Source: a virus
Taxonomy: Duplodnaviria; Heunggongvirae; Uroviricota; Caudoviricetes
Direction: 5' to 3' (one strand)
IMG/VR virus record: IMGVR_UViG_2585427751_000006
Location: 1 to 4,282 of that record
Length of the DNA stretch: 4,282 nucleotides
Shown here in pieces: positions 260 to 866 of the stretch (position 1 is the first letter of the stretch; every line of letters begins with the position of its first letter). The notes beneath the pieces are model-generated. The model saw nothing but the letters and a program-made list of their open reading frames with translations, made no database searches and was not told the origin of the DNA. A program made the translations under genes and the position numbers.

Positions 260-354
260 AAAAGATCGTTATATCCAAAGCAAAAAATGCAGTGCACCTT
301 TTTACCTAACAGATATTACCGGTGTCAACACCATGTCAATAATTGGGAGGGATA

Positions 355-537
355 ATGACATTTTTACAGCTTATTTTATTGTATTTCTGCACGGCAGTAT
401 GTGCGTTATATCTGGTGAGTGGTGGTTATAAGGCCATCAGAAATTATGTTCGCCGCAAAATTGAGGACGCAGCAGCTGAAAAACTCAGTAAAACAGCGCA
501 GGCAACTCCGCTCCCAAAAGACCCGACCCAGCCCTGA
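355..537 (+). CDS. small single-pass membrane protein, 60 aa (MTFLQLILLYFCTAVCALYLVSGGYKAIRNYVRRK...)
   Basis: ATG at 355 preceded by GGGAGGG (346-351). The ORF track starts at TTG 343, but the ATG with this SD is the more plausible start. Hydrophobic N-terminal ~25 residues followed by a charged tail. Stop at 535-537. Confidence 0.5.
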   Translation: MTFLQLILLYFCTAVCALYLVSGGYKAIRNYVRRKIEDAAAEKLSKTAQATPLPKDPTQP

Positions 538-572
538 TTGCAGGGCTTTATTCCCGCATAAGGAGGATATAC

Positions 573-827
573 ATGCCAGAAATTAAAGGCACCGTCACTG
601 AAGACCTGGTAAAACAGGCACTGTATTCCGGTGAAGTAAATAAGTTGCTGAAAGCGCAGGTCCGCAAGGATTTTGAGGCACAAATCGACACTTACGTTGA
701 TGAGGTGCTGGAAAAACTTATTGGGCCAGCAGCAGCGGCCAGTGATGCTGATAATGAACCGAAAACCGACGCGCAGCCAGAGCAACCAGAACCGGCTCAG
801 CCCGGAACTGACAGCACCATGATGTAA
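573..827 (+). CDS. hypothetical 84-aa protein with helical N-terminal half and acidic, Pro/Ala/Gln-rich C-terminal tail
   Basis: ATG at 573 with a strong SD AAGGAGG (560-566) at 6-nt spacing. Lies 35 nt downstream of the preceding ORF, consistent with an operon. Followed directly by an intrinsic terminator. Confidence 0.6.
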   Translation: MPEIKGTVTEDLVKQALYSGEVNKLLKAQVRKDFEAQIDTYVDEVLEKLIGPAAAASDADNEPKTDAQPEQPEPAQPGTDSTMM

Positions 828-833
828 CAATAC

Positions 834-866
834 AAACCGGCAGTTTCTCCTGTCGGTTTTATTTTC
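834..866 (+). terminator. Rho-independent terminator for the 355-827 operon
   Basis: Stem AAACCGGCAG (834-843) pairs with CTGTCGGTTT (850-859) including one G-T wobble; 6-nt loop TTTCTC; then T-tract TTTTATTTT (857-865), 7 nt after the stop codon. Confidence 0.65.

What the first reader, a model, noticed from the sequence alone, without database searches (positions are those of the whole stretch)
343..866. Two-gene operon of small unknown proteins with strong translation signals
A 60-aa membrane peptide and an 84-aa protein with an acidic Pro/Gln-rich tail both have strong SDs (GGGAGGG and AAGGAGG) and share one clean terminator, so they are very likely expressed. Neither resembles a family I recognise. 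A small membrane protein paired with a small soluble protein near a DNA-modification gene could be a phage accessory, toxin/immunity or lysis-type pair, but nothing in the sequence decides between these.
Basis: seen in the sequence. Interest (0 to 1): 0.35.

Follow-up and report, generated by a model that had tools for sequence, protein, structure and literature searches.

The report
Conserved small phage gene pair DUF1378/DUF826
The two small genes are real, conserved phage genes from two catalogued but uncharacterised families that travel with a phage sugar-esterase gene, so this is an ordinary prophage accessory module whose job is still unknown.

Summary
ORFs 355-537 (60 aa) and 573-827 (84 aa), their Shine-Dalgarno sites and the terminator at 834-859 are all present. 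Both proteins belong to known families of unknown function. The first is Pfam DUF1378 (E 9e-33) and the second is DUF826 (E 4e-15; PHROG 311, E 1e-28).

The window is the right end of a Mu-like prophage (com-mom) inserted in yaeF beside proS. The pair is not a free-standing operon. It is the distal part of a mobile cassette: NanS-p-type sialate O-acetylesterase, an antisense PasA/PasC-like sRNA gene, DUF1378, DUF826, terminator. About 300 Stx/lambdoid phages carry the same cassette just upstream of holin S. Here it lies between gin and com-mom, so the link to DNA modification is incidental.

Both genes are under purifying selection (median dN/dS 0.20 and 0.30). DUF1378 is predicted as one N-terminal membrane helix followed by a basic helix. 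DUF826 is an acidic helical protein with a disordered tail ending in a hydrophobic tip. No structural, defence or toxin homologue was found.

My best guess is a membrane-anchored late accessory pair acting at the envelope or lysis step. That role is inferred, not shown. Interest is low to moderate.

The parts
1..210 (+). 3' end (last 69 codons) of a NanS-p-type sialate O-acetylesterase gene, covering the C-terminal part of its DUF6645 domain. This is the first gene of the cassette.
   Evidence: Pfam DUF6645 E 2.6e-19 and PHROG 143/3591. In the 99.9% identical prophage of E. coli FORC_069 the full gene is 684 aa with SASA + DUF6645 domains. It is 55% identical over 605 aa to the lambdoid esterase of phage PhiR12_4.
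218..292 (-). Candidate small RNA gene of the PasA/PasC (EcOnc51/52) type, antisense to the esterase-DUF1378 spacer. The terminator stem is 258-250 / 234-226 and the U7 run is 224-218. The 5' end near 292 is inferred from the -10 box.
   Evidence: The hairpin folds at -19.7 kcal/mol and the whole unit at -23.8 kcal/mol, z -4.8. The architecture is conserved in 12 divergent versions, including PasA of EPEC E2348/69, and 4 of 8 stem pairs show compensatory changes. PasA coordinates come from PMC8550237 Table S6. Rfam gives only a non-significant full-length Esr41 match at 22 bits, E 0.54.
299..328 (-). Sigma-70-like promoter of the antisense sRNA: -35 TTGACA (328-323), 18-nt spacer, -10 TAAAAA (304-299).
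   Evidence: These are the only invariant blocks of the spacer across divergent loci, and their spacing is fixed. The promoter call itself is an inference from sequence.
345..351 (+). Shine-Dalgarno site GGGAGGG of the DUF1378 gene.
   Evidence: Read directly from the sequence. A purine-rich block occupies the same place in all homologous loci.
355..537 (+). DUF1378 gene, 60 aa. The protein has an N-terminal membrane helix, a basic amphipathic helix and a short Pro-rich tail.
   Evidence: Pfam PF07125 at 112.6 bits (cut-off 25) and PHROG 494 E 4.6e-33. AlphaFold2 predicts a single helix at residues 3-50, pLDDT 68. Median dN/dS is 0.20. Residues 3-25 are uncharged in 34 of 36 variants, and residues 26-48 carry net +4 in 33 of 36.
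560..566 (+). Shine-Dalgarno site AAGGAGG of the DUF826 gene.
   Evidence: Read directly from the sequence.
573..827 (+). DUF826 gene, 84 aa. The protein has an acidic helical N-domain (about 52 aa) and a disordered acidic Pro/Gln-rich tail ending in ...STMM.
   Evidence: Pfam PF05696 at 56.2 bits (cut-off 25) and PHROG 311 E 1e-28. AlphaFold2 predicts helices at 10-17 and 20-50 (pLDDT above 90 for 31-50), with the rest disordered. Median dN/dS is 0.30 for the whole gene and 0.25 for codons 1-52. A hydrophobic C-terminal tip is kept in 36 of 38 variants.
834..866 (+). Intrinsic terminator that closes the cassette.
   Evidence: Found by the scan. It folds at -14 kcal/mol, z -5.4. A hairpin plus T-run also follows DUF826 in most of the lambdoid versions read, just before holin S.

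Best explanation
SHOWN. The two ORFs are genuine, selected phage genes of the families DUF1378 and DUF826. They form the distal half of a mobile cassette with this order: NanS-p-type sialate O-acetylesterase, an antisense PasA/PasC-like sRNA gene, DUF1378, DUF826, terminator. The cassette occurs in two unrelated temperate-phage backbones. In lambdoid/Stx phages it lies between Q/stx and the holin S gene. In Mu-like prophages, as here, it lies between gin and com-mom.

INFERRED (physical model). No + strand promoter was found, so the pair is read through from the esterase gene. That makes them late genes in lambdoid phages. DUF1378 inserts in the inner membrane with its N-terminus outside and its C-terminus inside. 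Its basic cytoplasmic helix (net +4) docks the acidic helical domain of DUF826 (net -1 to -5; -2 or more negative in 37 of 38 variants). The long acidic tail of DUF826 and its conserved Met/Leu tip then remain free to bind a further partner.

INFERRED (role, weakest step). The complex acts on the cell envelope at the end of the lytic cycle. I think it most likely tunes the timing or efficiency of lysis. Its membrane contact would be a conserved host protein or itself, not one particular holin.

Confidence differs by layer: about 0.95 for identity and cassette membership, about 0.5 for the two-protein membrane complex, and about 0.3 for the lysis-linked role.
For: Identity:
- Pfam and PHROG hits are far above threshold.
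- RefSeq annotates identical copies with the same family names.

Cassette:
- The esterase lies directly upstream in 102 of 110 loci.
- DUF826 lies directly downstream in 110 of 124 loci.
- Of 85 loci with enough downstream sequence, 57 are followed by a holin and 22 by com/mom.
- The same order is seen in Citrobacter farmeri.
- DUF1378 is found in 309 phage records and DUF826 in 306.

Partnership of the two proteins:
- They also co-occur in the reverse order, without an esterase, in loci L095 and L097.
- Their charges are complementary across all variants.

Selection:
- Median dN/dS is 0.20 and 0.30.

Late co-transcription:
- No + strand promoter was found.
- No terminator lies between gin, the esterase and the pair.

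Link to lysis:
- The pair is immediately upstream of holin-endolysin-Rz in all E. coli and Citrobacter lambdoid loci.
- In Lonsdalea (L005) and metagenome locus L129, DUF1378 alone directly follows Rz/Rz1. In L005 its ATG overlaps the Rz stop codon.

Host or self target rather than a specific holin:
- The motif LYF-T-V--LYL-SGGY stays nearly invariant while the neighbouring holin and endolysin families differ.
Against: - In Mu-like prophages the pair is at the far end of the late region from where phage Mu's own lysis genes lie (position of the Mu lysis genes recalled, not checked here), next to tail-fibre, gin and DNA-modification genes.
- A terminator separates DUF826 from holin S in most of the lambdoid versions read.
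- EPEC prophage PP2 has the esterase and the holin without the pair, so the pair is dispensable there.
- There is no sequence or fold similarity to any known holin, antiholin, spanin or releasin.
- No interaction between the two proteins was computed or measured.
- The locus counts are inflated by many near-identical prophages.
- Expression and translation were not tested.
Confidence: 0.4

Rival explanations
1. The pair are helpers of the esterase. They would assist folding, oligomerisation, proteolytic processing or virion loading of the NanS-p-type esterase, or more broadly of virion surface glycan-binding proteins, in the way tail-fibre chaperones are encoded just downstream of their clients.
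For: - Synteny with the esterase is strict across two unrelated phage backbones.
- In phi24B the esterase is a capsid-decorating virion protein that undergoes processing (bioRxiv 10.64898/2026.04.10.717836).
- In esterase-less loci the genes instead follow tail-fibre and tail-fibre-assembly genes (L004, L095, L128).
- DUF826 is a small acidic helical protein. From memory it resembles T4 gp57A in general character, but this was not tested.
Against: - DUF1378 occurs without an esterase or fibre gene directly after Rz (L005, L129).
- An esterase occurs without the pair in E2348/69 PP2.
- A membrane anchor is unusual for such a chaperone.
- No peptides from this region were found in the held part of the phi24B virion proteome table. 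The file is truncated, so this is weak evidence.
Confidence: 0.2
2. The pair is a lysogenic-conversion or superinfection-exclusion module. A small inner-membrane protein (with a cytoplasmic partner) would block genome entry of other phages or modify a host membrane machine, as HK97 gp15 or AcrZ-type small proteins do.
For: - All locations are classical accessory ('moron') slots: between Q and S, after Rz, or after tail-fibre genes at the Mu right end.
- A terminator closes the unit everywhere.
- In L095 and L128 the neighbours are O-acetyltransferases typical of serotype conversion.
- In the Mu-like prophage no terminator separates the cassette from gin. From my own knowledge gin is transcribed in lysogens.
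- The membrane-helix motif is invariant across different phage backgrounds, which suggests a host target.
Against: - No + strand promoter of its own was found. The spacer is occupied by an oppositely oriented sRNA promoter.
- In lambdoid prophages the genes therefore depend on Q-mediated late transcription, when exclusion is of little use.
- There is no PADLOC hit.
Confidence: 0.2
3. The pair is a toxin/immunity or toxin-antitoxin system: a membrane-damaging peptide plus its neutralising partner.
For: The only support is the general shape, namely a small hydrophobic protein next to a small acidic protein with tight spacing.
Against: - No TA or defence family hit appears in Pfam, NCBIfam or PADLOC.
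- DUF1378 often occurs alone and intact (L004, L005, L127-L129, L114, L120-L122). That is unexpected for a toxin lacking its antidote.
- The unit sits inside late phage operons rather than forming an autonomous module.
Confidence: 0.04
4. The ORFs are non-functional hitch-hikers or annotation artefacts carried along with the esterase and sRNA genes.
For: - The genes are very short.
- The DUF826 tail is hypervariable.
- Some copies are deleted, frameshifted or fused.
Against: - dN/dS is 0.2-0.3 over hundreds of pairs with dS above 0.1.
- The ORFs are kept intact at only 54% and 38% amino-acid identity between backbones.
- The Shine-Dalgarno sites are conserved.
- The pair is retained in reversed order in L095.
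Confidence: 0.02

Closest known systems
DUF1378/DUF826 gene pair of Stx-converting and other lambdoid phages, for example Stx2a_WGPS8 gp77/gp76 (NC_049944). The region between nanS-p and S is described in PMC10462455.
   Same: - Same two Pfam families, in the same order.
- Spacing of the same order: a 35-nt gap here against 19-40 nt in the lambdoid versions read.
- Same upstream NanS-p-type esterase, antisense sRNA unit and closing terminator.
   Different: - Only 54% (DUF1378) and 38% (DUF826) identical.
- Here the cassette sits in a Mu-like prophage and is followed by com-mom instead of holin-endolysin-Rz.
- The esterase lacks the DUF1737 capsid-binding domain.
Two-component lysis regulators such as T4 RI (membrane-tethered) and RIII (small cytoplasmic helical protein), P1 LydB and Mu releasin gp25. 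This comparison rests on my own knowledge.
   Same: - One small single-helix membrane protein and one small soluble helical protein.
- Late expression.
- Adjacency to holin and endolysin genes in lambdoid phages.
   Different: - No detectable sequence or fold similarity.
- Not next to lysis genes in Mu-like phages.
- No lysis phenotype is known.
Small bitopic inner-membrane modulators such as AcrZ and MgtS, and the phage exclusion protein HK97 gp15. This comparison rests on my own knowledge.
   Same: - About 50-60 aa.
- N-terminal membrane helix with almost no periplasmic part, followed by a cytoplasmic amphipathic helix.
- A highly conserved membrane-helix face that suggests a specific membrane partner.
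   Different: - No homology.
- The partner is unknown.
- The module has a dedicated soluble companion protein.
PasA/PasC (EcOnc51/52) prophage sRNAs. These concern the neighbouring antisense unit, not the two ORFs.
   Same: - Same position and orientation, antisense between the esterase gene and the next gene ('> < >').
- Same TTGACA-N17/18-(T/G/A)AAAAA promoter architecture.
- Same CCGCCAG...CTGGCGG-U7 terminator.
   Different: - The body of the RNA is strongly diverged.
- No Rfam model matches. Only a non-significant Esr41 match was found.
- Expression has not been shown for this variant.

Membership tests
Pfam PF07125 (DUF1378) | HMM score at or above the gathering threshold (25 bits) over the full-length model | tested here: met
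   112.6 bits, E 9.4e-33, residues 1-58 on profile positions 1-58 of 59. PHROG 494 E 4.6e-33.
Pfam PF07125 (DUF1378) | About 59-aa enterobacterial protein with the conserved N-terminal hydrophobic segment MTF...LYFCT.VC.LYL.SGGY | tested here: met
   Invariant columns in alignments A1 and A5. Residues 3-25 are uncharged.
Pfam PF05696 (DUF826) | HMM score at or above the gathering threshold (25 bits) | tested here: met
   56.2 bits, E 3.9e-15. PHROG 311 E 1e-28 over the full length.
NanS-p esterase cassette of lambdoid/Stx prophages | SASA + DUF6645 esterase gene directly upstream, in the same orientation | tested here: met
   The window holds the last 69 codons. The full 684-aa gene is present in the identical prophages L001 and L007.
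NanS-p esterase cassette of lambdoid/Stx prophages | Esterase carries the N-terminal DUF1737 capsid-binding domain | tested here: not met
   The Mu-type esterase has no DUF1737. Its first ~70-98 residues match no Pfam or PHROG family, and they recur only in Mu-like inserts.
NanS-p esterase cassette of lambdoid/Stx prophages | Cassette followed by class II holin, endolysin and Rz | tested here: not met
   Downstream here are a 66-aa ORF, a split gene on the minus strand, and com and mom.
Holin/antiholin or other lysis-cassette proteins | Homology to a known holin, antiholin, spanin or releasin family | tested here: not met
   No such Pfam, PHROG or NCBIfam hit. No PDB sequence or fold match.
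Holin/antiholin or other lysis-cassette proteins | Effect on the timing of host lysis | not testable with these tools
   This needs deletion or over-expression in an inducible lysogen.
Moron (autonomous promoter-gene-terminator insert) | Own promoter upstream and own terminator downstream | tested here: inconclusive
   The terminator is present. No + strand sigma-70-like promoter was found in 211-354, and the conserved blocks there belong to a minus-strand promoter. A consensus scan cannot exclude weak or activator-dependent promoters.
Toxin-antitoxin or anti-phage defence systems | Match to a known toxin, antitoxin or defence protein model | tested here: not met
   PADLOC gives no hit at E up to 0.1. 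Pfam and NCBIfam give none.
PasA/PasC sRNA family (neighbouring feature) | Antisense position between the esterase and the next gene, sigma-70 promoter, and a Rho-independent terminator with the CCGCCAG/CTGGCGG stem | tested here: met
   compared with the published PasA coordinates as mapped onto L091.
PasA/PasC sRNA family (neighbouring feature) | Detectable transcript, Hfq dependence and a conserved seed | not testable with these tools
   No expression data are available for this variant, and the body of the RNA is diverged.

The most novel reading that the evidence does not exclude
DUF1378 and DUF826 together form a previously unrecognised class of phage late-function module. A bitopic membrane anchor would be paired with an acidic adaptor whose disordered tail and Met/Leu tip capture a partner. 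That module would either set lysis timing (and so the timing of Shiga-toxin release in Stx phages) or couple the virion-displayed sialate O-acetylesterase to the membrane during assembly. The antisense PasC-like sRNA lying between the esterase gene and the pair could control the ratio of esterase to pair expression.
Probability: 0.2. Interest if true: 0.55.

Novelty: new member of a known kind. Interest (0 to 1): 0.3.

Why it matters
These two genes are among the most widespread uncharacterised genes of Shiga-toxin phages. They sit between the toxin and esterase genes and the lysis genes, so any effect on lysis timing or virion composition would bear on toxin release and phage spread.

The comparison made here shows three things that narrow the hypotheses and make simple deletion experiments meaningful:
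- The genes travel with the esterase and an sRNA gene as one cassette.
- The cassette has moved between lambdoid and Mu-like phages.
- The two proteins stay together even when their order is reversed.

For the window itself the result is modest. It is a normal accessory cassette at the right end of a Mu-like prophage.

Tried and rejected
- NCBIfam gave only noise for both proteins.
- The PDB sequence search with profiles of both families gave nothing below E 0.1.
- The Foldseek search of the DUF826 model against the PDB gave one hit at E 9.5, which is meaningless for a single long helix. I did not search the DUF1378 model because it is one helix.
- PADLOC gave no hit.
- Rfam gave only a sub-threshold Esr41 match (22 bits against a gathering score of 102). 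Esr41 proper lies in SpLE1 (PMC5286369), so I do not call the unit Esr41.
- A literature search by EHEC locus tags (ECs1208/9, L0106/7, Z1467/8) returned nothing relevant. A search for EcOnc51/52 was swamped by an unrelated acronym.
- The phi24B virion proteome supplement has no entry with coordinates just after gp84. The stored file is truncated, so this is not evidence of absence.
- Proteins carrying both Pfam domains (P0173, P0182, P0193) looked like natural fusions. They arise from frameshifts into the open upstream frame of DUF826, so I treat them as errors or pseudogenes.
- The 124-134-aa 'long' DUF826 annotations use an upstream ATG that the window version lacks, so I reject that start.
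- The plasmid copy of DUF1378 is a fragment among IS debris.
- The exhaustive profile search of 1.84 billion representatives found only 57 DUF826 relatives. All have the same architecture and none carries an informative domain fusion.
- DUF1378 type does not track endolysin type. The same DUF1378 variant occurs with both the 165-aa and the 177-aa endolysin.
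Full report
OBSERVATION. A 60-aa ORF runs from ATG 355 to stop 537 and is preceded by GGGAGGG at 345-351. An 84-aa ORF runs from ATG 573 to stop 827 and is preceded by AAGGAGG at 560-566. The two genes are 35 nt apart. A hairpin at 834-859 followed by a T-run is found by the terminator scan. It folds at -14 kcal/mol, z -5.4 against shuffles. The mechanical ORF list starts the first ORF at TTG 343. All homologues begin MTF..., so ATG 355 is the real start.

WHERE THE WINDOW COMES FROM. The window is the right end of a Mu-like prophage. Positions 1679-1879 encode Com (Pfam Zn_ribbon_Com) and 1833-2570 encode Mom (Pfam Mom, E 2e-77). 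From about 2700 onward the sequence is core E. coli chromosome, present in 5,425 of 5,426 complete genomes. That part contains yaeF (NCBIfam YaeF, profile positions 1-250 of 274) and proS. The prophage therefore cuts off the last ~24 codons of yaeF. A 99.9% identical prophage end lies at a different chromosomal site in E. coli FORC_069, inside a fimbrial usher gene. This is as expected for a transposing phage. In FORC_069 the gene order is tail genes, invertible tail-fibre segment, recombinase (gin-like), a 684-aa 'DUF6645' protein, DUF1378, DUF826, a 66-aa ORF, a pseudogene, com and mom.

IDENTITY OF THE TWO ORFS. The 60-aa protein is Pfam DUF1378 (112.6 bits against a cut-off of 25; E 9e-33) and PHROG 494. 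The 84-aa protein is Pfam DUF826 (56.2 bits against 25; E 4e-15) and PHROG 311 (E 1e-28). RefSeq already annotates them under these names. Both families are of unknown function. Of the two papers in the library that name either family, the only relevant one says just that ORFs with these domains lie between nanS-p and S in Stx2a phages (PMC10462455).

THE REAL UNIT IS A CASSETTE. The gene that ends at position 210 is a NanS-p-type sialate O-acetylesterase with SASA and DUF6645 domains. It is 55% identical over 605 residues to the esterase of lambdoid phage PhiR12_4. In Stx and other lambdoid phages the order is esterase, DUF1378, DUF826, holin S, endolysin, Rz. The lambdoid copies are 54% (DUF1378) and 38% (DUF826) identical to those in the window.

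I collected 130 loci anchored on DUF1378 from IMG/VR, GTDB genomes, metagenomes and annotated records. I mapped reference proteins onto them by tblastn.
- The esterase is directly upstream in 102 of 110 loci with enough flank.
- DUF826 is directly downstream in 110 of 124 loci.
- Of 85 loci with at least 2.3 kb downstream, 57 continue into a holin, 22 into com/mom and 6 into neither.

Many of these loci are near-identical prophages, so the counts describe prevalence and not independent events. In the phage collection DUF1378 is found in 309 records and DUF826 in 306. About 495 of 5,426 complete E. coli genomes carry DNA similar to the pair. Hybrids exist, with a Mu-type gin and esterase followed by a lambdoid-type pair and holin (L065, L076). 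Recombination inside the cassette therefore links the two kinds of prophage.

INFORMATIVE EXCEPTIONS.
- In a Lonsdalea prophage (L005) and a metagenome contig (L129), DUF1378 stands alone right after Rz/Rz1 of a lambdoid lysis cassette. In L005 its ATG overlaps the Rz stop codon.
- In Cedecea (L004) and in L127, DUF1378 lies alone upstream of a Dam methylase; in L004 it follows the tail-fibre gene.
- In L095 and L097 the order is tail-fibre assembly gene, DUF826, DUF1378, then a hexapeptide acetyltransferase on the other strand, then Dam.
- In L128, DUF1378 follows the tail-fibre assembly gene and faces an Acyl_transf_3 gene.
- EPEC E2348/69 prophage PP2 has the esterase and the holin with no pair between them.

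Three conclusions follow. The two proteins stay together even in reversed order, which argues for a partnership. Neither the esterase nor the holin is an obligatory partner. DUF1378 can function, or at least persist, on its own.

SELECTION AND PROTEIN FEATURES. I computed Nei-Gojobori dN/dS over all pairs of distinct coding sequences with dS above 0.1. The median is 0.20 for DUF1378 and 0.30 for DUF826, or 0.25 for DUF826 codons 1-52.

DUF1378:
- It has no charged residue in positions 3-25 in 34 of 36 variants.
- It has an almost invariant motif, LYF(C)T.V(C).LYL.SGGY.
- A helix follows with net charge +4 in 33 of 36 variants.
- AlphaFold2 predicts one helix at residues 3-50 and a disordered Pro-rich end.
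- By the positive-inside rule (established knowledge) the N-terminus faces the periplasm and the rest is cytoplasmic.

DUF826:
- It is acidic (pI 4.2).
- It has a short helix at 10-17 and a long one at 20-50 (pLDDT above 90 for 31-50).
- A tail of 11-49 residues follows that is 22% D/E, 16% P and 1% K/R.
- In 36 of 38 variants the protein ends in a Met/Leu-rich tip such as STMM, EMMM or GTML.
- The family is small. It has 57 representatives at 50% identity among 1.84 billion proteins, all with this architecture and none with a domain fusion.
- There is no similarity to any solved structure or defence protein.

TRANSCRIPTION. No + strand sigma-70-like promoter was found between the esterase stop and the DUF1378 start. 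An alignment of this spacer from 14 divergent loci shows only three conserved blocks: a T-run, the sequence GTCAA, and the Shine-Dalgarno site with ATG. Read on the minus strand, the first two blocks are TTGACA-N18-TAAAAA. About 40 nt further along the minus strand lies a strong hairpin followed by U7, and this ends beside the esterase stop codon. On the + strand that hairpin has no U-tract, so it is unlikely to terminate esterase transcripts.

This minus-strand unit has the same place, orientation and architecture as the published sRNA PasA of EPEC. PasA is on the minus strand at 743499-743415, between the esterase E2348C_0688 and the next gene, and has homologues EcOnc51/52 in EHEC (PMC8550237 Table S6; mapped). 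A 2026 preprint places PasA and PasC between the sialic acid esterase and the holin (10.64898/2026.05.13.724894). The terminator stem shows compensatory changes in 4 of 8 pairs.

In the identical prophage L001 there is no terminator between gin, the esterase and the pair. The first + strand terminator is the one after DUF826. I therefore infer that the pair is co-transcribed with the esterase. In lambdoid phages this would be late, from pR' under Q. In the Mu-like phage it may come from gin or tail-operon read-through. A hairpin plus T-run also follows DUF826 in most of the lambdoid versions read, just before S.

WHAT THE ESTERASE CONTEXT ADDS. NanS-p was long regarded as a conversion enzyme that frees Neu5Ac from O-acetylated mucin sialic acids (reviewed in PMC10462455). 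A 2026 cryo-EM preprint shows that in phage phi24B it is an abundant capsid-decorating protein. It is held by its N-terminal DUF1737 domain and is processed after release (10.64898/2026.04.10.717836). The Mu-type esterase lacks DUF1737. It has an unrelated N-terminal segment of ~70-98 residues seen only in Mu-like inserts. It may attach elsewhere or not at all.

MECHANISM. Shown: these are two selected genes that partner each other in either order. One product has the composition of a membrane protein and the other is an acidic helical protein. Both lie within late-oriented phage gene blocks. Inferred: a membrane-anchored heterocomplex forms through the oppositely charged helices, and the DUF826 tail acts as a flexible arm with a terminal binding motif.

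The role is the weakest step, and I weigh three readings.
- Lysis-linked role (about 0.3). It fits every lambdoid context, including translational coupling to Rz. It does not fit the Mu-like position.
- Esterase or fibre helper (about 0.2). It fits the positions after virion surface-protein genes. It does not fit the post-Rz cases or the prophage with an esterase and no pair.
- Conversion or exclusion function (about 0.2). It fits the accessory slots and the acetyltransferase neighbours. It is weakened by the lack of an own promoter.

The membrane motif stays invariant while the surrounding lysis genes differ. I therefore favour a host or self membrane contact over a specific holin. Toxin-antitoxin and artefact readings are unlikely.

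VERDICT. The feature is a divergent, Mu-borne copy of a known, widespread and uncharacterised Stx-phage gene pair. It is a new member of a known kind. Interest is low to moderate (0.3). Nothing here would surprise a phage specialist. The cassette view and the order-independent pairing give clear, cheap experiments for genes that lie right next to the toxin-release machinery of Stx phages.

Noticed in passing
window 218-328, minus strand: A compact sRNA-like unit lies antisense in the esterase-DUF1378 spacer. It has -35 TTGACA (328-323), -10 TAAAAA (304-299), a ~75-nt body and a terminator (stem 258-250 / 234-226, U7 at 224-218). Its place and architecture match the published PasA/PasC (EcOnc51/52) prophage sRNAs. 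Rfam gives only a non-significant Esr41 match.
   Followed up: partly
window 1-210; L001 10156-12210: The Mu-borne NanS-p-type esterase (684 aa, SASA + DUF6645) lacks the DUF1737 capsid-binding domain of the lambdoid versions. Its N-terminal ~70-98 residues match no Pfam or PHROG family and recur only in Mu-like inserts.
   Followed up: partly
window 903-1103 (+): A 66-aa ORF with no family match lies right after the terminator. It is present in only some variants of this Mu-like prophage, and other variants have a shorter spacer before com.
   Followed up: no
window 1066-1564 (-) and 1302-1415 (+): The minus-strand ORF 1265-1564 (99 aa) matches PHROG 26524 (E 1e-43, profile positions 1-90 of 135). 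RefSeq calls it a truncated pseudogene, and the adjacent 68-aa ORF 1066-1272 may be its displaced remainder. Inside it, on the + strand, is a very strong 13-bp hairpin with a T-run (1378-1407; -21.5 kcal/mol, z -6.2). A promoter-like site lies upstream at 1302-1331.
   Followed up: no
window about 2696-2700; yaeF 2588-3499 (-): The right end of the Mu-like prophage lies here. The insertion removes the last ~24 codons of yaeF, since the YaeF profile is matched only at positions 1-250 of 274. Near-identical prophages lie at other chromosomal sites in other strains, for example in a fimbrial usher gene in FORC_069. This is consistent with transposition.
   Followed up: partly
window 1679-2570 (+): This is the com-mom pair, with the mom GTG start (1833) overlapping the end of com. 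Some 2026 RefSeq records name Mom 'tRNA(Gly)-dependent adenine aminoacyltransferase'.
   Followed up: no
L065 and L076: These are hybrid loci. A Mu-type recombinase and esterase (97-99% identical to this prophage) are followed by a lambdoid-type DUF1378/DUF826 pair, holin and endolysin. L076 also carries an inverted Mom-Com-DUF826 block downstream. This suggests homologous recombination between Mu-like and lambdoid prophages within the cassette, or assembly chimeras.
   Followed up: no
L095 2955-3992; L128 6001-7313: In esterase-less Mu/P2-like prophages the DUF826/DUF1378 genes sit next to O-acetyltransferase genes (a hexapeptide-repeat type in L095, Acyl_transf_3 in L128). In E. coli they sit next to an O-acetyl esterase. 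This may be a coincidence of accessory slots or a link to glycan acetylation.
   Followed up: partly
lambdoid loci, e.g. L036; proteins P0146-P0173: In many lambdoid versions the DUF826 reading frame is open for ~37 codons upstream and overlaps the end of DUF1378. This yields annotated 124-134-aa forms and frameshift 'fusion' proteins that carry both Pfam domains. The window version has no such extension, so these look like annotation or sequencing artefacts.
   Followed up: partly
L002 1138-1349, L003 1450-1655, L071 4574-5689 and others: STnc100-family sRNA genes (one to several copies), and in three of these loci tRNA genes (in L032 and L087 isrK and C4 RNAs instead), lie upstream of the esterase in lambdoid loci. 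In those phages the esterase is therefore flanked by sRNA genes on both sides.
   Followed up: no
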